NCBI GenBank assembly: GCA_026417515.1
Contig: JAOADC010000066.1
Location: 1-49,669, forward strand
Reading direction: 5' to 3'
DNA length: 49,669 bases
DNA from: Actinomycetota bacterium
GTDB taxonomy: Bacteria; Actinomycetota; Aquicultoria; SKW223
The notes below the pieces were generated by a model. It saw nothing but the letters and a program-made list of their open reading frames with translations, did no database searches and was not told the DNA's origin. Shown piece by piece: positions 2,891-42,465 of this stretch (position 1 is its first letter; every line of letters begins with the position of its first letter). Position numbers and translations under genes: made by a program.

Positions 2891-3961
2891 TCAGTACACA
2901 ACATTTCTTATTGGATGCAGAAAAAGCGGCGAACTTCTCCAGCAAGGATAATAACCATAGTTGTAGAGTTCTAATTGCCTATTGATAATTGCTGCGAGAA
3001 GCATCTTTTGTTTTACGCTTTCACCCAAGGTATTTAGATGTTCGACTAGGAACCTGTAAAGTATTTCAAGCGAGCTCATTTCTCCATTATTAGAAGGCAG
3101 CGCAAGACATCCTTTAGAAGAATTCTTTAAGGCTGCTTCGTTTATTACTTCATCTAGCGCCTCCTTGAATTTACCAATTACAATCGGCCTTGAAATCCCC
3201 TTAGCATATGGGCACAAGGCAAGGTATATTTTTGAACGAGACTTAAAAATATAGGCCGTATGCGAAAGAGCCGGACAGCGACATGAAAAGGCCCAGGAGA
3301 TTTCGACTGGATTTTCATATAGAGGATAGATTGAAGACCTTAAGAAGGATATTCTATGCAATAGCAATTCTGAAAGAAGGCAGATTGACTCCTTTGCATT
3401 TTCCAAATTTTCTTCAGGTGCCTCTTTCATAAGTGTAGAGAGTCTGAAATAGCTGGCACCTTTTTGGACTGCGAAGTCGAATACATCTCCTATTTCTGAT
3501 CTGTTGATTTCATTGAGAGTCATTGAAATACCAAAAAAACTCTTTTTTTGCGAAAGTTTTTCAACAGTTCCAAGGATGTTTCTATAGGCGCTTCGTTTTC
3601 CCTTGATAATCTCAAGAACTTCAGGTTCAAGGGATTCGATGCTAACTCTTACCTGTGCAAGGTTTGGAAAACTCAATATCTCATCCAGTTGTTTTTCTGA
3701 TTTATCTGGACATGAGGTAAACAAACTTACAAAAACTCTTTCTTCAAGGCAGATATTTAATATTTCAACTATTGAAGGGTGAAGCAAAGGCTCACCACCG
3801 GTGAGAAAAACATCTGTTAGACCCAATTTCTTTGATTCCCTGATTATCCAAGTTATTTCTTCCAGCGATAACTCTGAATCAGGTATCGATTTCTCCTTTC
3901 TACAGTAAACACACTTATAATTGCAAGATGAAGTTAAATCAATCGTCAGCGCCTTGAGCAT
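2891..3961 (-). CDS. Radical SAM enzyme (356 aa) with atypical Cys-containing C-terminus; second maturase of putative RiPP cluster
   Basis: CNYKCVYC (CxxxCxxC), TGGEPLLHP; GGAGGT SD; ATG 1 nt after the stop of the upstream rSAM gene. Confidence 0.88.
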   Translation of the reverse strand: MLKALTIDLTSSCNYKCVYCRKEKSIPDSELSLEEITWIIRESKKLGLTDVFLTGGEPLLHPSIVEILNICLEERVFVSLFTSCPDKSEKQLDEILSFPNLAQVRVSIESLEPEVLEIIKGKRSAYRNILGTVEKLSQKKSFFGISMTLNEINRSEIGDVFDFAVQKGASYFRLSTLMKEAPEENLENAKESICLLSELLLHRISFLRSSIYPLYENPVEISWAFSCRCPALSHTAYIFKSRSKIYLALCPYAKGISRPIVIGKFKEALDEVINEAALKNSSKGCLALPSNNGEMSSLEILYRFLVEHLNTLGESVKQKMLLAAIINRQLELYNYGYYPCWRSSPLFLHPIRNVVY

Positions 3962-3962
3962 C

Positions 3963-5342
3963 TTACGACCTCCAACTAAAACCCTTTTTGTTCAGCCCAC
4001 ACTCTGAGTTTTCTGATGCTTTCATAAGCATACGTTTAAGGCAACCATTGCAGTAACTGAAGTTTTTGCATCTTTCGCATCCCAAAGAAGAAGGGGATTC
4101 AACATCTGAAAATACTCCAAGATTCTTTTCGGAAAGAAGGTGCTCGAGATCTTCTGAAAAAATATTGCCAAAAGTAAAGCTTCTATCAAACATCACACAT
4201 GGTCTTATGTTTCCTTCAGGACATATTGCTATGGTTTTTGTTCCTGCTCCACAACCAAAGTCAAAGATTTCTTTCAAAGTAGGTTCAGGCAGGACAAAAA
4301 CCTTATCTGGATAAATAGATTTTAGTTTCATAAATTCAATATCAAAGCGGGCCCAGTCGCTATCGTCTTCAATAAAGATTCGAGAGTTTAATGCCCTGCC
4401 TTCCGGATTAACAGGAGCAGCTGCAAATATGGAAGCACCATTTTCAAATGCCAGTTCTGCAGTTGGTAGAATATCATTAAGGTTTTCTCTTGAAACATTC
4501 ATTGATACTCTTACAGGGACTGAAGCAGCTTCCAAAAGCCTCAATGCTCTTAAAGCCTTTTCAAAGGATCCTTTCATCCCTACAAACCAGTCGTGAAAAG
4601 AACTCTTATAGGAATTTAAAGTGATGCTTACAAAAACTTTGGTTTCGTACTTGTTCAGATTGCTCAATAGAGAAACTTTCTGTTCATCGAGAAGTGTTCC
4701 ATTTGTTATCACTGATACCAGATCAAAATACTCTGCTGCCAGGGAAAGCATTTCATCAAAATAAGGATGCAAGAGAGGTTCTCCTCCGGTGAACTCAACA
4801 ACCAGTGTGCCTTCAAGTGACAGGTTTTCAGCCATCCTGAAGAAATTCTCTTTATTCATAAATTGATTATTTCCTGGACCAGACTCTCTGTAACAATGAA
4901 CACACCTTTGATTGCATGAATCAGTAAGCTCCAGGAATAGATGGAGGGGTACGAAGTAATCTCTTGAACCTCCAAAAGTTGGAAAACTTGAAGAATGCAG
5001 TGGCTCGTATGCGTAATCAATGATGCCTTCTTGAAGCAACCAATCAAGAAAATAGTAAACTTTATTTTCTGGAATTCGGTAGACATTCTTAAGAACCTTA
5101 AGAATAGTTTTAAGAGGTGTTCTTCCATCACATGAAAAGATTATCTCCTCGTCAGTATGGTCAATTTTTTTCGAAATATACGAGCGGAAGTTTGTTTTAG
5201 TTGAATTCTTTCCTGGATGGAAAAGCCATGAATCTCTTGGTGTTGTGTGAATATGACAGTCGCTTGTTACGAAAGGATAAACCTTTTCAGGCTTGATTTC
5301 ATAAAAACTCTGAATCCGTTTGTTTGAATGAAGACCCCTCAT
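3963..5342 (-). CDS. AlbA/ThnB-like radical SAM/SPASM peptide maturase with N-terminal PqqD-like RRE (459 aa)
   Basis: True start ATG 5342 with AAGGAGG SD; RRE-like CDGRTPLKTIL...FLDWLLQEGII; CNQRCVHC; TGGEPLLHP; SPASM CGAG...GNIRPC...GNI...CERC...YCNGC...C. Confidence 0.9.
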   Translation of the reverse strand: MRGLHSNKRIQSFYEIKPEKVYPFVTSDCHIHTTPRDSWLFHPGKNSTKTNFRSYISKKIDHTDEEIIFSCDGRTPLKTILKVLKNVYRIPENKVYYFLDWLLQEGIIDYAYEPLHSSSFPTFGGSRDYFVPLHLFLELTDSCNQRCVHCYRESGPGNNQFMNKENFFRMAENLSLEGTLVVEFTGGEPLLHPYFDEMLSLAAEYFDLVSVITNGTLLDEQKVSLLSNLNKYETKVFVSITLNSYKSSFHDWFVGMKGSFEKALRALRLLEAASVPVRVSMNVSRENLNDILPTAELAFENGASIFAAAPVNPEGRALNSRIFIEDDSDWARFDIEFMKLKSIYPDKVFVLPEPTLKEIFDFGCGAGTKTIAICPEGNIRPCVMFDRSFTFGNIFSEDLEHLLSEKNLGVFSDVESPSSLGCERCKNFSYCNGCLKRMLMKASENSECGLNKKGFSWRS

Positions 5343-5365
5343 TCGTACCCCTCCTTTTTTATTTT

Positions 5366-5485
5366 TTACCAGGCTGTTAGGCCTGCGACAGAAAGGGAAG
5401 AAGTTGCTGCATATCTGGTTCCACACCAGACTGCTGCGAGCGAGCATGCAGCGCAAGCAGCACAACCCGTGCACCATGCAGGCAT
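5366..5485 (-). CDS. Putative sactipeptide-type RiPP precursor, 39 aa: MPAWCTGCAACAACSLAAVWCGTRYAATSSLSVAGLTAW
   Basis: Hand-translated; SD GAGGGGGTGA 5 nt before ATG; CxxCxxCxxC; ends 23 nt before the rSAM/SPASM start; not in the ORF track. Confidence 0.85.
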   Translation of the reverse strand: MPAWCTGCAACAACSLAAVWCGTRYAATSSLSVAGLTAW

Positions 5486-5621
5486 TTTAATCACCCCCTC
5501 TTTGTAATGGGTTTAAAAAAAGAATAGAGGAGCGTTAAAGTGTTGAAAATAAAGACAAGATATTAAATGAGTGAACAAAATTTCCTAATATGAGTGATTT
5601 ATCCTCTAGGAAAGGATTCAG

Positions 5622-6104
5622 TTATTCTTGATCGATATAGATTTCTTCAGCATCAGCGTTGTAACCTAAAAGTTCTGCAAACCTACCCCAGTCAATTATG
5701 ACATTAAGCAGTTTCTCGGCGTCTTCGTGCGTTAACTCTTCTTCGAATAATTCAGTAACCTTTTCGCGATCAGCCATAAGGTCCTTGTTTGTATGGAGGA
5801 ACTTTAAAAGGTCCTTAAATATTTTCACTTTTTTCAATCTTTCTTTAAAAATAAGTTTTCTTTCATTGATGTCAGCGTCAATAAACTTTTTACCAATTTC
5901 AGTTAGGATTATGTCTCCATCTTCTATCCTCACAAAACCAAGTATTTCTGCTGCATCAACTATGGGAGAAAACTCGTCAATATCCATATTGAGCATTTTT
6001 GCCAATTCAAAAAGATCTTCCTTTTGAGATTTAAAATCGTTTAAGAACTCCAGAAGCCCAATAATTTCACCAATAGTGGCTTTAGGCAGGGGCTCAATAG
6101 CCAT
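5622..6104 (-). CDS. Stand-alone AAA-associated (NitT/TauT ABC C-terminal-type) domain protein
   Basis: LP.ATIGEIIGLLE...DL..LA..L.MDID...PIVDAAEILGF...IDWGRFAELLGY pattern, normally the C-terminal domain of NitT/TauT ATPases. Confidence 0.8.
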   Translation of the reverse strand: MAIEPLPKATIGEIIGLLEFLNDFKSQKEDLFELAKMLNMDIDEFSPIVDAAEILGFVRIEDGDIILTEIGKKFIDADINERKLIFKERLKKVKIFKDLLKFLHTNKDLMADREKVTELFEEELTHEDAEKLLNVIIDWGRFAELLGYNADAEEIYIDQE

Positions 6105-6134
6105 TACAGATGTCTCACCTCTTCATCTAGAATT

Positions 6135-6896
6135 TTAAAGTATACGCGCATAAACCTCGTCAACGATTTCTAAAAGTTCCTTCGACTTATATTTTCTTGG
6201 TCTTGGCAATGGTATTTTAACCTGTCCAATTGTCTTTCCTGGTTTTTCTGAGACAAGAATAACACGATCGCTCATATAAACAGCTTCTTCAATCGAGTTA
6301 GTAACCATTAATATGCTTAGTAAATTAAACGATTGATCCTGCCAAATATCAAGAATTTCCTCTTGAAGATTTCTGGCTGAAAGGATGTCCAGATTTGAAA
6401 AGGGTTCGTCTAATAGCAATAACTCAGGCTGCACAGCGAGGGCTCTTGCAATACCGACTCGTTGCTTCATGCCTCTTGAAAGTTCTCTCGGATATGCTTC
6501 TTCAAATCCCTCTAAACCTACTTTATCGATGAAAAACTCGCTTATTCTCACTGCTTCCTTTTTGGGAATACCCTTAGCTTCAAGAGGAAGAATAATGTTC
6601 TCAAGTACAGTAAGCCAGGGTATGAGGGCAAAGTTCTGAAAAACAATGGAAACTTTTTCGTTGTGACCGGTTACTTCTTCTCCAGCGTAATACACTTTTC
6701 CATCTGTTGGCTTTTCAAGACCAGAGATGATTCTGAGCAGAGTGCTCTTTCCAGAGTCTGAGGGCCCAACAAGTGATACGAACTCGTTCCTGTAGACAGA
6801 AAAATTCATATCTTTTATTACGATATATTCTTTACCACCTTCAAAAAATTTCTTTTCAACATGCTCTACTTTTAATAGAGGAACTCTTCTTGGCAA
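6135..6896 (-). CDS. NitT/TauT-family ABC transporter ATP-binding protein with variant motifs
   Basis: GPSDSGKST, FQNFALIPW, LSRGMKQR, LLLLDEPF; H-loop reads VTN. Confidence 0.9.
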   Translation of the reverse strand: MPRRVPLLKVEHVEKKFFEGGKEYIVIKDMNFSVYRNEFVSLVGPSDSGKSTLLRIISGLEKPTDGKVYYAGEEVTGHNEKVSIVFQNFALIPWLTVLENIILPLEAKGIPKKEAVRISEFFIDKVGLEGFEEAYPRELSRGMKQRVGIARALAVQPELLLLDEPFSNLDILSARNLQEEILDIWQDQSFNLLSILMVTNSIEEAVYMSDRVILVSEKPGKTIGQVKIPLPRPRKYKSKELLEIVDEVYARIL

Positions 6897-6899
6897 TTT

Positions 6900-8627
6900 C
6901 TACTCCAGATCGAGAGAATATTTTTTTTCGGCGTAATCATAAAGTTTTTGCCAGATTAGGTTGTTTAAAAGAATTATAACAGTAACCAGAGCAGCCAGAC
7001 AAAGTGTTAGTAGTGTGGTGTCGCCTTTGATGATAGCAGCATAGTCAATCAAATAGCCTATACCATTGACTTTGTAAACCTTGTGGTTGAAAACAGAAAA
7101 CTCAGCAACTACTAAAGCGTTCCATCCTGCTCCAAAAGCAGCAAAAGAACCGGTTACTAATCCAGGAAAAGATGCTGGCAAGACAAGTTTACGAAGGATA
7201 AAAAACTTTGACTTGGAAAAGAGGTGAATTGGTTCTTTAAGTTCTCTTGGTATAAGCATAATACGGGACGCAGGTGGGAAAATCATATACCAAAACATTG
7301 TCGAAAAGAGTACAAAGAAGGCTGCCAGCTCCATCGAATGCTTGAATTTAGAACCTATGGCAATTGATAGAATGAGTGGTTTTAAGGCGGTCCCAGGTAT
7401 TGAAGATAGGATTCTAAAAATAGTCAAAAGCCCCTCTGATGTTTTTGGGCTTCCGAAGTAAAGAATTGATGAGATGATTGATAACAAAAGTAAGCAAAAA
7501 ATGTAAACTGAAACCAAACGAATAAAGGAAAAGAAAATAAATGATGGAATATTTCGAGCTTCTAGAGGGAACGGTTGGGTTAAAATGTAAATTAGAAACT
7601 TACCAAGAACAAAAATCAGGTAGGCAAGAAAACCAAAGAATAATATTTTTACAATTAGCGATAGCAATCTTTTTAACTTCTTTGATGCCTGGATTTTTGA
7701 AAAACGGGAGTAAAGTATTTCAGTAAGAGTGGTTTTCTGAATCCTTTCCTTTAATTCTTCTTCAAATCCACGTCTTATTGGAGAGAAGAATTGAATTAAA
7801 TCTTTAAACTTTGATAGAACATAATTTTCAGGAGCTTCTTCTTCGTAGGGCATCATTTGAAAAGAGAACTTTTTTGACCAGCTGGTTAAAGGTTCCCAAA
7901 CAAAGATGCTCATTGCAAGAACAGTGATGATTATGGCAAGAAATCCGCCAAGAACACCAAAATAATCGCCCTTTTCAGAGGAAGTCCAGAGAATCTGGCC
8001 TATTCCTGGAAGATTGAACTGCTTGGCACCAATTGCAAAAACTTCAGAAGACATAAGAAAGAACCAACTGTTTCCCCATGAGACATTGGAGTTAAAGATG
8101 AGAGAAGGGATTGTTGCTGGGATATAAACCTTTTTTAAAGCAAGCCAGCCCCTAATATTGTAGGCACGTAATAATCTATCAACATCTTTTGGCATAACTT
8201 TTAGTGATTCGTAGACACCAAAAATCATATTCCAAGCCTGAGATGTAAAAATTAGAAATATCGAAGCAAGTTCTATGCCTATGCGTTCCCCTCTAAAAAG
8301 AGCAACAAAGATGCCTATTGCAGCTGGAAAGAATCCAACCACAGGTACGCTCTGCATAATATCAAGGAAGGGCAAGAGTACTCTTTCAACACGTTTGTTT
8401 CTGGCCATCCAAAAACCAAGTGCTATGGCAGCGATGAGTGAAAATACATAAGATGCGGCAATCCTTAGAATTGAGTAACTTGTATATGTTAAAAGTTGGA
8501 AGAAATCGTAAGGCGCTCTCCTGAATATGTAAAAAGAAACGACGACGAAAGCGCTCAATGAGAAACCAAAAAAAACATATCTCAAAATACTTGATTGGCG
8601 CAGATTAAAAGGAAGTCTTCCAAGCAT
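6900..8627 (-). CDS. NitT/TauT-family ABC transporter permease with duplicated membrane domains
   Basis: LDIMQSVPVVGF, FTSQAWNMIFG, SWGNSWFF..SE, GAGWNALVVAE; about 12 hydrophobic segments. Confidence 0.85.
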   Translation of the reverse strand: MLGRLPFNLRQSSILRYVFFGFSLSAFVVVSFYIFRRAPYDFFQLLTYTSYSILRIAASYVFSLIAAIALGFWMARNKRVERVLLPFLDIMQSVPVVGFFPAAIGIFVALFRGERIGIELASIFLIFTSQAWNMIFGVYESLKVMPKDVDRLLRAYNIRGWLALKKVYIPATIPSLIFNSNVSWGNSWFFLMSSEVFAIGAKQFNLPGIGQILWTSSEKGDYFGVLGGFLAIIITVLAMSIFVWEPLTSWSKKFSFQMMPYEEEAPENYVLSKFKDLIQFFSPIRRGFEEELKERIQKTTLTEILYSRFSKIQASKKLKRLLSLIVKILFFGFLAYLIFVLGKFLIYILTQPFPLEARNIPSFIFFSFIRLVSVYIFCLLLLSIISSILYFGSPKTSEGLLTIFRILSSIPGTALKPLILSIAIGSKFKHSMELAAFFVLFSTMFWYMIFPPASRIMLIPRELKEPIHLFSKSKFFILRKLVLPASFPGLVTGSFAAFGAGWNALVVAEFSVFNHKVYKVNGIGYLIDYAAIIKGDTTLLTLCLAALVTVIILLNNLIWQKLYDYAEKKYSLDLE

Positions 8628-8649: not shown

Positions 8650-9315
8650 ATGAATAAAAAATCATATAATTTGTTTGTGGCTAAAATAAATTCAAAGAAA
8701 AACGAGATAAGAATAAGGAGAAAAGTTGAACCCTTTGTTTGGTCTTACCAGTCTCTTAAAACCCTTCTAACTCTTTCGATTTTGGGTTTGTTGCTGGGCA
8801 TTGTGAGTTTATTGAGCGGAAAATATGTTAATTATTTCTTTCACTACTTAATCTATCCATTCGCGGTATTTGGCCAGATATCAAGTTATATTTTCCAGAA
8901 GGAGTATTATGAAATCGAAAGAAAAATAGATGGATTTTATTTGTTAAGCATCGTTCTCTTCGCATTAATTGAAGCCTTTTTTATCTGGAAGTATATTCTA
9001 CTTCTATACCAATTTCTGGTGATGTTTGGATTGGCAGCAACAGGTCTAGCGTTTCTCGGTTTAAACTCAGGAATCAGACAGATTGAAAAATTTGGATTAA
9101 AGCCACCTTCAAAAAGAATGGCACGAATTTTATATCTGGCACCTTTTATCTGGTTTATCCTATACCTTCTTGCAGCATTTACTCTTCCACTTTTAAGAAT
9201 AAACAGCCAGAACTTCATTCACTTTTCTCTTGCCCCAGCTTTTTCAGTGCTTTCATCACTCAACATTGGGTTTTTTGGTGGCTTCGTAAAAGAATCGATA
9301 AAGTTAAAAAAATGA
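8650..9315 (+). CDS. Hypothetical multi-pass membrane protein (alternative start GTG 8677)
   Basis: About 6 hydrophobic segments; overlaps the next gene by 4 nt. Confidence 0.6.
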   Translation: MNKKSYNLFVAKINSKKNEIRIRRKVEPFVWSYQSLKTLLTLSILGLLLGIVSLLSGKYVNYFFHYLIYPFAVFGQISSYIFQKEYYEIERKIDGFYLLSIVLFALIEAFFIWKYILLLYQFLVMFGLAATGLAFLGLNSGIRQIEKFGLKPPSKRMARILYLAPFIWFILYLLAAFTLPLLRINSQNFIHFSLAPAFSVLSSLNIGFFGGFVKESIKLKK

Positions 9316-9707
9316 TGGCAGAGAAAAGTGTTGTCAGAGATTACTCGAGGTTTCTAAAAGGCGCTTTCATTATAATCTGTAGTTTCACAGCAGTAATCGC
9401 TATATCCTCGTTGATTTATTTGTTGTTGGTTGGAAAGATAAATGCTGCATCGGCAGTTTTTTCCGCTGCCATAATATTTTTCTTAATAGTTCTTCCGCTT
9501 ATTTTGTCTCTGAGAATGCCTGGATCGATTGGAATATTTTTCTTAATCATAGGATCAGGAGTCTTTGTTGCTTCTTTAAAACTCGAGGCTTCAGCAAAAG
9601 GAAAGAATTTTTTTGTTGGAGCAAGCACAGCGCTCATTATTTCAGGAATTCTACTCATTCTTTCTCTTCTTGCTGAAAAAATATCCAGAAAGGGCAGGGA
9701 AGGATGA
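9312..9707 (+). CDS. Hypothetical 4-TM membrane protein
   Basis: Four hydrophobic stretches; ATGA overlaps with both neighbours. Confidence 0.6.
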   Translation: MMAEKSVVRDYSRFLKGAFIIICSFTAVIAISSLIYLLLVGKINAASAVFSAAIIFFLIVLPLILSLRMPGSIGIFFLIIGSGVFVASLKLEASAKGKNFFVGASTALIISGILLILSLLAEKISRKGREG

Positions 9708-10881: not shown

Positions 10882-11625
10882 ATGACTAAGGTAAGCACTT
10901 CAAAGAATCGGAAGATTGAAGCCATTCTTCTTGGCACATTTGTTTTCATTTCAATGTTTCTTCTCGTTCTACTCGCTAAAAACATTTCTGGAATTAGACC
11001 TATAAGGCAGAACAAGGACGCGCTTATCTCCAGGATTAGAGAACTCGAACAAGAAAGAGCAAAATATAAAAAGACTATTGAAGAATTAAATAAGCAGATT
11101 GGAGAATTGGAGCGCAAAACTGCTTCTTCTGACAGAAGAGTTAAGGAATTGAAGAGACAGCTCGATTTGCTAAGAGAAGAGGTTGGAATGACCGCAATAA
11201 TTGGCAAAGGTGTTGAGGTAACTCTAAAAGATGCAGAGGTTTCGGGTGGTTTGATTGAAGAAGAACAGGCAGTGGTGCACGATTCTGATCTGAGGCTTTT
11301 AGTCAATGGTCTTTTTCTTGGCGGTGCAAGGGCTGTTTCGATAAATGGTGAAAGAATTACCTCAGTCTCTTCAATCAGGTGCGTAGGACCAACCATACTT
11401 GTAAACAGCAAAAGAATATCCTCGCCTTTTGTAGTAAAAGCAATAGGAGATCCTGAATCATTAATTGATGGATTATATGAAGAGCCAACGCTTAATTACT
11501 ATATAACACAATTGTTTCCAGAGATAGGAATAGGTTTTTCTGTAAAGAAAAAGGATGACATAAGAATTCCAGCATACAAGGGGAACCTTAGTTTCAGCAA
11601 AAATTTAGTAAGGGTGGCGAAGTAA
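10882..11625 (+). CDS. DUF881 family protein
   Basis: N-terminal TM, coiled coil, G.GVEVTL.D, VHDSDL..LVN.L..GGA.AVSINGER, CVGPTILVN, AIGDP. Confidence 0.88.
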   Translation: MTKVSTSKNRKIEAILLGTFVFISMFLLVLLAKNISGIRPIRQNKDALISRIRELEQERAKYKKTIEELNKQIGELERKTASSDRRVKELKRQLDLLREEVGMTAIIGKGVEVTLKDAEVSGGLIEEEQAVVHDSDLRLLVNGLFLGGARAVSINGERITSVSSIRCVGPTILVNSKRISSPFVVKAIGDPESLIDGLYEEPTLNYYITQLFPEIGIGFSVKKKDDIRIPAYKGNLSFSKNLVRVAK

Positions 11626-11984
11626 TGATCTGGATGTCGATTTTAGCAGGAGTGACTGCAGGAGTACTATTAGGAGTATTTGTAACTCTCGAAATCCCTG
11701 CTGTTATTGCCAGGTATGTATCGATTGCTCTTCTTGCATCCTTTGACACTCTTATAGGAGGTTTAAAATCTTATCTTAAAAAAGAGTTCGATGAATGGAT
11801 TTTCGTGTCTGGATTCCTGGCTAACTCCTTGCTTGCTGCTTTTATATCCTATCTCGGTGATAGACTTGGAATAGAACTATACCTTGCTGTTCTACTTGTT
11901 TTTGGAATGAGGATATTTCAAAATCTCGCAGAACTCAGGCATGCCTTGATTCTTAAGTTAAGAAGGGTTAAGAAGAATAAATGA
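11625..11984 (+). CDS. DUF1290 / small basic protein (Sbp) family membrane protein
   Basis: YVSIALLASFDTLIGG...F.SGFLANSLLAA...GDRLG.ELYLA...FGMRIFQNLA. Confidence 0.88.
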   Translation: MIWMSILAGVTAGVLLGVFVTLEIPAVIARYVSIALLASFDTLIGGLKSYLKKEFDEWIFVSGFLANSLLAAFISYLGDRLGIELYLAVLLVFGMRIFQNLAELRHALILKLRRVKKNK

Positions 11985-41286: not shown

Positions 41287-42465
41287 TTACCTGGTAATCA
41301 TTTTCTTGAAAAGTGGAACGGAAATCGATGTCGTAGCAATTCCAAATAAAGCAAGAACGAGCATTTCGTTCTTAACGGAATTTATACCGCCACCAAGAAC
41401 CATCACCTTTCTCAAAGCCTCAATAGCATATGTTAATGGTATCGCTTTAGAAAGGTACTGCATAAAAACTGGCATCATTGAAATAGGGAAGAAAACTCCA
41501 GATAAGAAAAGCATAGGAAATTGGAACATAAAAAGTAATTGTGTTGCTGTTTCCTGTTCAGCAGCAGATGCTGATACAAGTATTCCAAAACCAACGAAAG
41601 AAAAAATTCCAAGTATCAGGATGATAAGAACCAGAATTAGGCTTCCTGCAATCTTTACACCAAAAACAATTGAAGCAAGAATTAAGACGATGCTTCCTTG
41701 AACAAGGCCTCTCACTGCCTGTGCCAGAGCCTTACCCAAAACGATAGCAACACGATTAATTGGTGAAATTAAAATTCCATCAAGTGTTCCAATCTCACGC
41801 TCTCGCGAAATGGCAGCAGCAAGGCCTGTTAGAACAGCAGTCATCACAATCATAGCAATAATTCCCGGAGCGACAAACTCAAAGTAATTGCGTTTTCCTT
41901 TGACAATTCCTTCTATCTTTACTTTTACTGGTTCAACAATGGATTTTATTGTTTCTGATGGCATTCTTTGTTGAACTGCAATCTTTTCAGCGCTGATTCT
42001 TTTTGAATAGATTTCAACCATTCTGGACAGGGCTTGAGTAAAGGTTTGAGATGCTTGAGGATTGGCCTGGTCTTCAACAACTATCAATTCTGCCTGCCTG
42101 AAAGAATCAATTTTTTTGCTGAAGTCTTTGTCAATAAAAATGCCACCATTAATTTCGTGAGAACGTATGCCTTCTTTTAAACTTTCTAAGGAATCATAGG
42201 TTTTTAACTTAAACATCTTTTCGTTAGATTCCAGTTTTGCTACTTCGAGCATTTTTACGAACTGCTTCGAACGTGAACCATTGTCCAGATTAACTAAACC
42301 AATTTTTGCGTTTTTTAATGCATTCTCGTTGGGAAAGATGAAGCCAACCATTATCATCATAAAGATTGGCATAATGAAAAAAGAAAAAAGCCTCATCCTA
42401 TCTCTTGAAAATTCAATCAAATCTTTTCTTGCTATAATCCAGATTTCTTTGAGAGTTTTCCTCAT
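41287..42465 (-). CDS. ABC-2 type exporter permease
   Basis: PGII.M, REREIGTL..IL.SP, LSGVFFP..MP, PLTY..EALR. Confidence 0.92.
   Translation of the reverse strand: MRKTLKEIWIIARKDLIEFSRDRMRLFSFFIMPIFMMIMVGFIFPNENALKNAKIGLVNLDNGSRSKQFVKMLEVAKLESNEKMFKLKTYDSLESLKEGIRSHEINGGIFIDKDFSKKIDSFRQAELIVVEDQANPQASQTFTQALSRMVEIYSKRISAEKIAVQQRMPSETIKSIVEPVKVKIEGIVKGKRNYFEFVAPGIIAMIVMTAVLTGLAAAISREREIGTLDGILISPINRVAIVLGKALAQAVRGLVQGSIVLILASIVFGVKIAGSLILVLIILILGIFSFVGFGILVSASAAEQETATQLLFMFQFPMLFLSGVFFPISMMPVFMQYLSKAIPLTYAIEALRKVMVLGGGINSVKNEMLVLALFGIATTSISVPLFKKMITR

What the first reader, a model, noticed from the sequence alone, without database searches (positions are those of the whole stretch)
5366..5485. 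Hidden 39-aa precursor with a thurincin H-like CxxCxxCxxC motif
Seen: MPAWCTGCAACAACSLAAVWCGTRYAATSSLSVAGLTAW, with Cys at 5/8/11/14, a fifth Cys in WCG, an Ala/Ser/Thr-rich C-half, three Trp, no acidic residues, and visibly higher GC than its flanks. The ORF track missed it and absorbed it into a false N-terminal extension of the rSAM. From memory, the thurincin H core (DWTCWSCLVCAACS...) has the same i+3 Cys spacing and the same CAACS. Inference: a hairpin with four nested sactionine bridges to C-terminal acceptors.
Basis: partly seen in the sequence, partly recalled or inferred. Interest (0 to 1): 0.9.

Follow-up and report, generated by a model that had tools for sequence, protein, structure and literature searches.

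The report
Leaderless thurincin-like peptide gene
A real, conserved 39-residue gene sits hidden in front of two radical-SAM enzymes and looks like the starting peptide of a thurincin H-type cross-linked antibiotic peptide, but unusually it has no leader segment.

Summary
Window 5366-5485 (minus strand) encodes exactly the 39-aa peptide quoted. A Shine-Dalgarno site lies 6 nt before its ATG, and it ends 23 nt before the true start (5342) of an AlbA/SkfB-like radical-SAM/SPASM enzyme. A second radical-SAM gene follows.

A related genome (G001) has the same ORF in the same gene order: 72% aa identity, 17 synonymous against 11 non-synonymous codon changes. Three more 39-aa members exist among 1.84 billion representative proteins. 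All five keep C5, C8, C11, C14, W20-C21-G22 and the terminal W39.

More distant relatives of the enzyme (27-34% identity) sit beside CxxCxxCxxC peptides. One is the annotated thuricin 17 precursor, whose core fits the published description of thurincin H. Those peptides carry 11-26 residues before the first Cys. This family carries 4, with in-frame stops just upstream.

Most likely this is a naturally leaderless, thurincin-type thioether peptide precursor. It has an extra conserved Cys and a private second radical-SAM family (12 full-length relatives found). The cross-links, expression and function are untested. It is a new variant of a known kind. Interest 0.6.

The parts
5366..5485 (-). 39-aa precursor peptide gene (ATG 5485-5483, TAA 5368-5366): MPAW-CxxCxxCxxC-...-WCG-...-GLTAW
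   Evidence: Translation. Ortholog in G001 at the same position with a mostly synonymous substitution pattern. Three more 39-aa members.
5492..5498 (-). Shine-Dalgarno site GGGGGTG, 6 nt before the ATG of the peptide gene
   Evidence: Read from the sequence. G001 has GGAGGTG at the same 6-nt spacing.
5486..5512 (-). Upstream limit of the reading frame. An in-frame stop lies 9 codons before the ATG. The only alternative start is a GTG 3 codons upstream.
   Evidence: The open frame is 48 aa in the window and 44 aa in G001.
3963..5342 (-). rSAM1: 459-aa radical-SAM/SPASM enzyme with an N-terminal RRE-like domain (AlbA/SkfB-like thioether synthase candidate). AAGGAGGGG site at 5348-5356.
   Evidence: Pfam Radical_SAM and SPASM. 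NCBIfam AlbA 178.6 bits, SkfB 100.7 bits. PDB SkfB E 9.8e-27. Model matches SkfB at Z 32.3 over residues 27-455. Seven conserved C-terminal Cys.
2891..3961 (-). rSAM2: 356-aa radical-SAM enzyme with no RRE and no Pfam SPASM hit. It has four invariant C-terminal Cys and a PCWRSSP motif. Its start lies 1 nt after the rSAM1 stop.
   Evidence: Also present after rSAM1 in G001.

Best explanation
The ORF is the structural gene of a ribosomally made, post-translationally cross-linked peptide (RiPP) of the thurincin H/thuricin 17 type, in a three-gene operon: peptide, rSAM1, rSAM2.

Proposed mechanism (inferred). The 39-aa peptide is translated from its own ribosome-binding site. The initiator Met is probably removed, because residue 2 is Pro, Ala or Val in all five members. 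That would place the Cys at positions 4/7/10/13, exactly the published thurincin H core numbering.

rSAM1 has a radical-SAM core, a seven-Cys SPASM domain and an RRE-like N-terminal domain. It would abstract hydrogen from acceptor residues in the Ala/Ser/Gly-rich C-terminal half and join them to the Cys thiols as thioethers, most likely S-C-alpha (sactionine), giving a nested hairpin.

rSAM2 has a SkfB/PqqE-like core, no RRE and a private four-Cys C-terminal domain. It either installs a further link, with the invariant Cys21 as the obvious candidate, or works in complex with rSAM1.

Unlike every characterised relative found here, the precursor has no leader. Recognition must therefore use the core itself or the conserved C-terminal tail (V33, L36, A38, W39), and no leader protease is needed.

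Shown: the gene, its conservation, its gene order and the enzyme family relationships. Inferred: translation, the cross-links and their positions, the division of labour between the enzymes, and an antibacterial function.
For: Coding signal:
- The Shine-Dalgarno site sits at an identical 6-nt spacing in the window and in G001.
- Between the two genes, 12 of 40 codons are identical, 17 differ synonymously and 11 non-synonymously. 24 of 38 base differences are at position 3.

Family:
- There are 5 members, all exactly 39 aa.
- Invariant residues are M1, C5, G7, C8, C11, C14, W20, C21, G22, Y25, A27, V33, L36, A38 and W39.

Gene order:
- Peptide, rSAM1, rSAM2 appear in that order in both loci for which DNA is held.
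- Six contig-length coincidences between rSAM1 and rSAM2 homologs (36636, 34854, 34269, 30404, 17012, 48291) suggest the pair travels together elsewhere.

rSAM1:
- Its best NCBIfam hit is the subtilosin maturase AlbA, E 1.4e-52.
- Its best solved relative is the sactisynthase SkfB, by sequence and by fold: Z 32.3, rmsd 3.5, 365 aligned, against 25.1 for the next entry, SuiB.
- It is 27% identical (E 2e-42) to the enzyme next to the thuricin 17 genes.

Relatives:
- 6 of the 7 best metagenome relatives of rSAM1 (L030-L035) have a CxxCxxCxxC(xxC) small ORF just upstream. In the seventh, L029, the upstream DNA is cut by the contig end.
- Two plasmid relatives also have such an ORF upstream.

Thurincin H data:
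- The review gives a 31-aa core, a 40-aa precursor and links Cys4-Ser28, Cys7-Thr25, Cys10-Thr22 and Cys13-Asn19 (PMC8172795, passages read).
- The tucA translation fits these numbers.
- In des-Met numbering the window peptide has Cys4/7/10/13, Thr22 and Ser28.

Precedents:
- Two-radical-SAM sactipeptide systems are known: TrnC/TrnD act as a complex (PMC12093266, abstract).
- Leader-independent thioether formation by a radical-SAM maturase is known in vitro for PapB (PMC12715619, abstract).
Against: - There is no evidence of transcription, translation or modification.
- Direct similarity to the thuricin 17 precursor is confined to the Cys run: 7 of 12 identities, pairwise E 0.008.
- No Pfam or NCBIfam precursor model matches, 0 of 11 peptides with a relevant hit. 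No PDB sequence matches either.
- rSAM1 scores far below the AlbA equivalog cut-off (178.6 against 850), so regiochemistry cannot be transferred.
- The PqqD Pfam model hits 0 of 17 family members. The RRE is seen only in the predicted fold.
- The thurincin-register acceptor positions are not conserved across the family: 23 is T/S/S/V/S, 26 is A/A/A/G/G, 29 is S/N/N/G/G.
- No protease, exporter or immunity gene lies in the operon. The neighbours are ruvB and an importer-type ABC system. This fits a secreted bacteriocin poorly.
- DNA context is known for only 2 of the 5 peptides.
- rSAM1 and rSAM2 are only 35% and 38.5% identical between the two genomes, while the flanking genes are 62-77% identical. 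The history of the locus is therefore unclear.
Confidence: 0.7

Rival explanations
1. It is a radical-SAM-modified precursor, but not a sactipeptide. The Cys would be linked to beta or gamma carbons (ranthipeptide-type), or the enzymes, especially rSAM2, would make C-C or other cross-links involving the invariant Trp20, Tyr25 or Trp39.
For: rSAM1 reaches no equivalog cut-off. It also scores against PapB (71.9 bits) and WgkB (74.5 bits). rSAM2 belongs to no named family and its fold resembles several SPASM/twitch enzymes equally. The aromatic residues W20, Y25 and W39 are invariant.
Against: The closest characterised relatives by sequence and fold are the sactisynthases AlbA and SkfB. The Cys pattern and core register match thurincin H. 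The peptide has no Asp, Glu, Asn or Lys, the residues I recall as usual acceptors in ranthipeptides and Trp-Lys systems. Two members have Gly at several candidate acceptor positions, which only offers a C-alpha.
Confidence: 0.2
2. It is a small Cys-rich protein that is not a substrate of the enzymes, for example a metal- or Fe-S-binding peptide or a membrane peptide. Alternatively it is a Cys-rich upstream ORF whose translation regulates the radical-SAM operon.
For: No modification has been observed. The peptide is very hydrophobic with five thiols. It lies 23 nt ahead of rSAM1, which would allow translational coupling. No exporter or protease gene is present in the operon.
Against: Conservation covers the whole peptide, not only the Cys codons. 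Homologous enzymes in 8 other loci sit beside peptides with the same Cys run, including a named bacteriocin precursor. The length is invariant at 39 aa in all 5 members.
Confidence: 0.07
3. It is a chance open frame in a GC-rich spacer or a structured RNA.
For: The ORF is short. The motif alone occurs in two other, off-frame places in the window.
Against: The third-position substitution pattern and the conserved Shine-Dalgarno spacing argue for coding. Other frames of the G001 copy contain stops. Four independent homologs have identical length. There is no Rfam match better than E 0.55.
Confidence: 0.02

Closest known systems
Thurincin H / thuricin 17 (Bacillus thuringiensis group; tucA/thnA precursors with the ThnB-type radical-SAM enzyme)
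   Same: Four Cys at i+3 spacing. In des-Met numbering they sit at the same core positions 4/7/10/13. The CAACS string is shared, and Thr22 and Ser28 coincide in the window peptide. The C-terminal half is Ala/Ser/Thr-rich. The adjacent RRE-bearing radical-SAM/SPASM enzyme is homologous (27% identity, E 2e-42)..
   Different: There is no 9-aa leader: 4 residues precede the first Cys against 12. The tail after the last motif Cys is 7 residues longer and ends in an invariant Trp. There is a fifth invariant Cys in WCG. A second, unrelated radical-SAM enzyme is present. No protease, ABC exporter, regulator or immunity genes lie in the operon. The source is an uncultivated 1.25-Mb genome, and the only run found holding it is labelled hot springs metagenome.
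Subtilosin A system (SboA/AlbA)
   Same: AlbA is the best NCBIfam match of rSAM1 (E 1.4e-52, residues 57-439 on model positions 35-416). The precursor is short with N-terminal Cys donors and a short leader (the 8-aa figure is recalled, not from a call).
   Different: The score is far below the equivalog cut-off (178.6 against 850). No AlbB-G genes are present. Subtilosin has three Cys at other spacings and is head-to-tail cyclised (review passages). There is no sign of a cyclase here.
Two-enzyme sactipeptide systems (thuricin CD TrnC/TrnD; thuricin Z/huazacin ThzC/ThzD; ruminococcin C RumMC1/MC2)
   Same: Two radical-SAM genes lie next to the precursor. TrnC and TrnD act as a complex (PMC12093266 abstract). 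ThzC/D and RumMC1/2 are described in PMC8172795 (passages) and PMC8188230 (search listing).
   Different: Those pairs are, as I recall, paralogous enzymes of the sactisynthase type. Here rSAM2 has no RRE and no Pfam SPASM hit. It belongs to a tiny family of its own: 12 full-length relatives, then a drop from E 1.7e-43 to 2.2e-12.
Leader-bearing CxxCxxCxxC(xxC) peptides next to rSAM1 relatives in metagenome loci L030-L035 and on the Clostridium estertheticum plasmid NZ_CP077629.1
   Same: They share the Cys run and an Ala/Leu/Ser-rich tail. The adjacent enzyme is homologous (27-34% identity)..
   Different: They carry 11-26 residues before the first Cys. Several have an Asn-Pro or Thr-Pro leader motif. 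An ABC ATPase gene usually lies downstream. None has an rSAM2 homolog.

Membership tests
Sactipeptide (RiPP class) | Precursor peptide with Cys donors encoded next to a radical-SAM enzyme that has an auxiliary-cluster (SPASM/twitch) domain | tested here: met
   Peptide 5366-5485 lies 23 nt upstream of rSAM1. rSAM1 has Radical_SAM and SPASM hits and conserved C364, C382, C422, C425, C431, C434 and C448.
Sactipeptide (RiPP class) | Sulfur-to-alpha-carbon thioether links in the mature product | not testable with these tools
   Needs mass spectrometry or NMR of the modified peptide.
Sactipeptide (RiPP class) | N-terminal leader recognised by the enzyme's RRE and later removed | tested here: not met
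   Only 4 residues precede the first Cys in 5 of 5 members. In-frame stops lie 9 codons (window) and 5 codons (G001) upstream of the ATG. Relatives carry 11-26 residues.
Sactipeptide (RiPP class) | RRE (PqqD-like) domain in the synthase | tested here: inconclusive
   The PqqD Pfam model hits 0 of 17 family members at E<=1. However, the predicted N-terminal domain (strands 22-60, helices 62-104, pLDDT about 90) aligns with the N-terminal parts of SkfB (from model residue 27) and SuiB (from residue 23). Residues 60-113 also align with the N-terminal part of the thuricin 17-locus enzyme, which is annotated as PqqD family.
Sactipeptide (RiPP class) | Cluster genes for protease, export and immunity | tested here: not met
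   The operon ends against ruvB (1845-2885, + strand). Upstream lie an importer-type ABC system (BPD_transp_1 permease, SaoA/NtrCD-like ATPase) and an AAA_assoc_C protein. The rest of the genome was not searched for such genes.
Thurincin H / thuricin 17 precursor family | CxxCxxCxxC with Cys at core positions 4, 7, 10, 13 | tested here: met
   Cys are at 5/8/11/14, which is 4/7/10/13 after Met removal. The tucA core has the same positions, as does the review.
Thurincin H / thuricin 17 precursor family | Significant sequence similarity of the precursor | tested here: inconclusive
   BLASTP gives 7 of 12 identities over the Cys run, pairwise E 0.008. No curated precursor model hit.
Thurincin H / thuricin 17 precursor family | Acceptors at core positions 19, 22, 25, 28 | tested here: inconclusive
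   The window peptide has W19, T22, A25 and S28 in des-Met numbering. Across the family the last three positions vary (T/S/S/V/S, A/A/A/G/G, S/N/N/G/G). The actual links are unknown.
AlbA equivalog (NF012164) | Score at or above the curated cut-off of 850 bits | tested here: not met
   178.6 bits. It is a homolog, not an ortholog.
Radical SAM/SPASM superfamily (rSAM2) | CxxxCxxC motif plus a recognisable SPASM or twitch domain | tested here: inconclusive
   C13, C17 and C20 are invariant and PF04055 matches. There is no PF13186 hit. Four invariant C-terminal Cys (C229, C250, C285, C340) are present, and the fold is nearest to BlsE, PqqE, SkfB and SuiB at TM 0.49-0.59.

The most novel reading that the evidence does not exclude
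This is a naturally leaderless sactipeptide. The translated peptide, minus its Met, would be the core itself. The RRE-bearing synthase would recognise the core or the conserved C-terminal tail instead of a leader. Five nested thioether bridges would span the whole molecule: C21 to A27, C14 to position 30, C11 to V33, C8 to L36 and C5 to the terminal W39. These acceptor positions have the same i+3 spacing as the donors, and four of the five are invariant. The fifth link, or another modification, would be made by a new radical-SAM family with a private four-Cys domain. With no protease, exporter or immunity gene, the product might act inside or on the producing cell rather than as a secreted bacteriocin.
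Probability: 0.25. Interest if true: 0.78.

Novelty: new variant of a known kind. Interest (0 to 1): 0.6.

Why it matters
RiPP biosynthesis is built on the leader/RRE rule. According to the review passages read, sactipeptide synthases generally recognise an N-terminal leader, and AlbA and SkfB are described there as leader-dependent. A natural precursor that begins at the core, yet is paired with an enzyme that keeps an RRE-like domain, would give a direct system for asking how such enzymes recognise substrates without a leader. Leader-free cross-linking enzymes are wanted for peptide engineering. In the abstract read, PapB was presented as a notable case.

The finding also defines a small, unannotated peptide family and a companion radical-SAM family of unknown chemistry, from an uncultivated genome of only 1.25 Mb. 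It also shows that longest-ORF gene calling hides such precursors inside false N-terminal extensions.

My three literature searches found no report of a natural leaderless bacterial sactipeptide. Leaderless RiPPs were reported for fungi (PMC12912989, seen only as a listing and abstract start).

Tried and rejected
- Word-index protein search with the 42-aa GTG-start form of the ORF found no candidate.
- PDB sequence search with the peptide profile gave only a chance hit at E 0.84.
- Pfam and NCBIfam scans of 11 peptides gave no relevant family.
- The genome-contig scan with rSAM1 alone found nothing. With the peptide profile it found only the G001 contig.
- The phylum-wide search (401 genomes) with the 2-sequence peptide profile gave only noise. 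The best match outside G000 was E 0.0015 and partial. G001 was not in that sample.
- Among the class's 48 genomes, a full-length rSAM2 appears only in G000 and, cut by a contig end, in G001. The other 5 hits are core-only radical-SAM genes beside heme-synthesis genes.
- Viral-contig scans found only core-level radical-SAM hits for rSAM2 and nothing for the peptide.
It returned only relatives of 34% identity or less. The closer relatives (44-60% identity, P0005-P0015) could not be fetched as DNA.
- Complex prediction (rSAM1 alignment plus peptide alignment) gave no answer: score 0.02, mark 0.32. This is neither support nor evidence against.
- The look-up of sequencing runs listed no RNA holder. 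One DNA run (X1), labelled hot springs metagenome, holds 0.96 of the words and may be the source sample.
- The sigma-70 promoter and terminator scan found nothing in the 5486-5621 spacer. Counts were at shuffle level.
- The Atlas search for rSAM2 returned only generic radical-SAM clusters.
- The Rfam scan of 5200-5700 gave nothing better than E 0.55.
I give none.
- I considered and set aside head-to-tail cyclisation as in subtilosin, since no candidate cyclase lies in the operon. I also set aside the neighbouring ABC system as the exporter, since its permease and ATPase are importer-type. Its adjacency is kept in G001 but may only reflect relatedness.
- Supplementary files of papers were not opened. 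They might list related precursors from genome-mining studies.

Full report
**What is there.**
- A GGGGGTG Shine-Dalgarno site lies 6 nt before the ATG.
- The frame is closed by a stop 9 codons upstream. The only alternative start, a GTG, would add three residues.
- Twenty-three bases after the stop, behind its own AAGGAGGGG site, starts a 459-aa radical-SAM/SPASM protein (rSAM1, 5342-3963).
- One base after that gene's stop starts a 356-aa radical-SAM protein (rSAM2, 3961-2891).
- The operon then ends against the convergent ruvB gene.
- The mechanical ORF list extends rSAM1 to 504 aa across the peptide gene in another frame. The protein collection holds the window's own protein as 459 aa (P0004).
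- The ORF has 56.7% GC in a window of 38.1%.

**Is it a gene?**
The motif CxxCxxCxxC alone would not settle this. It occurs in three open frames of the window, against 0.07 expected from shuffles. The other two lie off-frame inside longer ORFs.

Conservation does settle it. A genome of the same family but another genus (G001; contig of 3430 bases) carries a 39-aa ORF at the same place. The gene order is ABC ATPase, AAA_assoc_C protein, peptide, rSAM1, rSAM2.
- The two peptide genes are 68% identical in DNA and 72% in protein.
- Twelve codons are identical, 17 differ synonymously and 11 non-synonymously.
- 24 of the 38 base differences are at third positions.
- The other frames of the G001 copy contain stops.
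- G001 has GGAGGTG at the same 6-nt distance from its ATG.

A profile of the two peptides, scored against 1.84 billion representative proteins, found three more members (E 2.3e-16, 2.2e-9, 3.1e-6). Each is exactly 39 aa. In the five-sequence alignment, M1, C5, G7, C8, C11, C14, W20, C21, G22, Y25, A27, V33, L36, A38 and W39 are invariant.

The family is rare.
- A pattern scan of one genome per 185,579 species found only the G001 contig.
- Searches of 41 relatives and 401 genomes of the phylum found no other significant match.
- No Pfam or NCBIfam model matches.

**The enzymes: rSAM1.**
- It has Radical_SAM and SPASM domains.
- Its best NCBIfam hit is the subtilosin maturase AlbA (178.6 bits, E 1.4e-52, residues 57-439). 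SkfB follows at 100.7 bits. Both are far below their equivalog cut-offs.
- Its best solved relative by sequence is the sactisynthase SkfB (E 9.8e-27).
- An AlphaFold2 model (pLDDT 85.3) matches SkfB at Z 32.3 (rmsd 3.5, 365 residues, model 27-455). This stands seven units above SuiB (Z 25.1, model 23-452).
- Both alignments include the N-terminal domain. In the model this is a small sheet (strands between residues 22 and 60) followed by three helices (62-104), which is an RRE-like layout.
- The Pfam PqqD model hits none of 17 family members, so I rate the RRE as likely, not proven.
- Seven C-terminal Cys are conserved in 17 homologs, as expected for two auxiliary clusters.

**The enzymes: rSAM2.**
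- It has the CxxxCxxC motif, no N-terminal extension and no SPASM hit.
- It has four invariant C-terminal Cys (C229, C250, C285, C340) and an invariant PCWRSSP motif.
- Its profile again hits SkfB best among solved structures, but only over the core (E 2e-23).
- Its model (pLDDT 84.6) resembles BlsE, PqqE, SkfB and SuiB at TM 0.49-0.59.
- Its family is tiny. The search found 12 full-length relatives down to E 1.7e-43, then the scores drop to 2.2e-12 for generic MoaA-like cores.
- Six of these relatives have the same longest-contig length as an rSAM1 relative (36636, 34854, 34269, 30404, 17012, 48291). This suggests, but does not prove, that the pair travels together.

**Relatives with known or likely precursors.**
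The best metagenome relatives of rSAM1 that could be fetched are only 28-34% identical. In six of the top seven (L030-L035), a small ORF with CxxCxxCxxC or CxxCxxCxxCxxC lies within a few hundred bases upstream. In L032 it is on the opposite strand. In the seventh (L029) the upstream DNA is cut off.

A tblastn search of plasmids found relatives in Bacillus and Clostridium.
- On Bacillus mycoides plasmid NZ_CP136375.1 the enzyme (27% identical to rSAM1, E 2e-42) follows two genes annotated tucA, 'thuricin17'.
- These translate to 40-aa precursors with a 9-aa leader and a 31-aa core. The core has Cys4/7/10/13 and N19, T22, T25, S28.
- Those are exactly the numbers that the sactipeptide review gives for thurincin H: 31-residue product, 40-aa precursor, links Cys4-Ser28, Cys7-Thr25, Cys10-Thr22, Cys13-Asn19 (PMC8172795, passages).
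- That thuricin 17 and thurincin H are the same peptide is my inference from this fit, and from recall.

Direct similarity of the window peptide to this precursor is limited to the Cys run: 7 of 12 identities, including CAACS, with pairwise E 0.008.

**What is different.**
In the 13-sequence alignment, the eight leader-bearing peptides have 11-26 residues before the first Cys. Thuricin 17 has 12. All five members of this family have 4.
- Residue 2 is Pro, Ala or Val in all five. By established knowledge of methionine aminopeptidase specificity, this allows Met removal.
- The des-Met peptide would then start where the thurincin H core starts, with Cys at 4/7/10/13. In the window peptide, Thr22 and Ser28 would also match.
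- The tail after the last motif Cys is 25 residues, against 18 in thuricin 17, and it ends in the invariant LxAW.
- The fifth Cys is invariant within WCG.
- rSAM2 has no counterpart in the leader-bearing loci, where an ABC ATPase gene usually follows instead.
- The operon contains no protease, exporter or immunity gene. The neighbouring ABC system has an importer-type permease and ATPase.
- Between G000 and G001 the peptide (72%) and the flanking genes (62-77%) are much better conserved than rSAM1 (35%) and rSAM2 (38.5%). I cannot explain this.

**Most likely mechanism.**
I commit to the following, at about 0.7 for the class and less for the details.
- The peptide is the substrate of rSAM1, which installs thioether links from the four N-terminal Cys to residues of the C-terminal half and folds it into a nested hairpin, as in thurincin H.
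- rSAM2 adds a further link or modification, with Cys21 the obvious candidate, or acts in complex with rSAM1 as TrnD does with TrnC (PMC12093266, abstract).
- No leader is made or removed. Recognition uses the core or the conserved tail.
- Leader-independent thioether formation has an in vitro precedent in PapB (PMC12715619, abstract).

Two link registers fit the data.
- The thurincin register is C14-W20, C11-23, C8-26, C5-29. Only W20 is invariant among these acceptors.
- The full-span register is C21-A27, C14-30, C11-V33, C8-L36, C5-W39. Four of these five acceptors are invariant, and it would explain the fixed length.
- With five sequences this is only a lead.

Nothing about expression, chemistry or activity is shown.

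**Novelty and verdict.**
The kind, a thurincin-type precursor beside an AlbA/SkfB-like enzyme, is known. The variant is not in any curated family. It combines no leader, five invariant Cys, a fixed 39-aa length and a private second radical-SAM family, in an uncultivated 1.25-Mb genome. My three literature searches did not find it described. I file it as a new variant of a known kind, with interest 0.6.

Noticed in passing
window 5622-8627 (-): An ABC system of importer type sits directly upstream of the peptide gene. It comprises a 575-aa permease with two BPD_transp_1 domains, a SaoA/NtrCD-like ATPase and a stand-alone 160-aa AAA_assoc_C (PF09821) protein. No binding-protein gene was seen among the ORFs examined. 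The ATPase and the AAA_assoc_C gene keep this position in G001 (77% and 62% identity).
   Followed up: partly
window 2891-5485 compared with L009 (G001): The two radical-SAM enzymes are only 35% and 38.5% identical between the two genomes. The peptide is 72% identical and the flanking housekeeping genes 62-77%. This points either to fast enzyme evolution or to replacement of the cluster at the same site.
   Followed up: no
L030:731-874, L031:3793-3927, L032:3547-3666(-), L033:3636-3782, L034:3756-3911, L035:3678-3836: Metagenome loci with leader-bearing CxxCxxCxxC or five-Cys peptides lie upstream of rSAM1 relatives. Three of the leaders share an Asn-Pro motif (MNPATLG, GNPDITP, ANPEILG). An ABC ATPase gene often follows the enzyme.
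   Followed up: partly
L118:3343-3474 (Clostridium estertheticum plasmid NZ_CP077629.1): A gene annotated as a hypothetical protein encodes a 43-aa peptide with five Cys at i+3 spacing, next to a radical-SAM enzyme and an ABC transporter. It looks like an unnamed thurincin-type precursor.
   Followed up: no
window 11612-11746 (+) and 41558-41731 (-): Two other open frames carry CxxCxxCxxC. Both lie off-frame inside longer ORFs (11625-11984 and 41287-42465) and are taken as chance.
   Followed up: partly
L112-L116 (G026, G005, G034, G025, G016): The core-only matches to rSAM2 in related genomes are radical-SAM genes next to a porphobilinogen-synthase-like gene. They are probably heme-pathway enzymes and unrelated to the peptide system.
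   Followed up: partly
window 8650-9707 (+): Two hydrophobic ORFs (221 and 131 aa) with no Pfam match lie divergent from the ABC operon. Their function is unknown.
   Followed up: no
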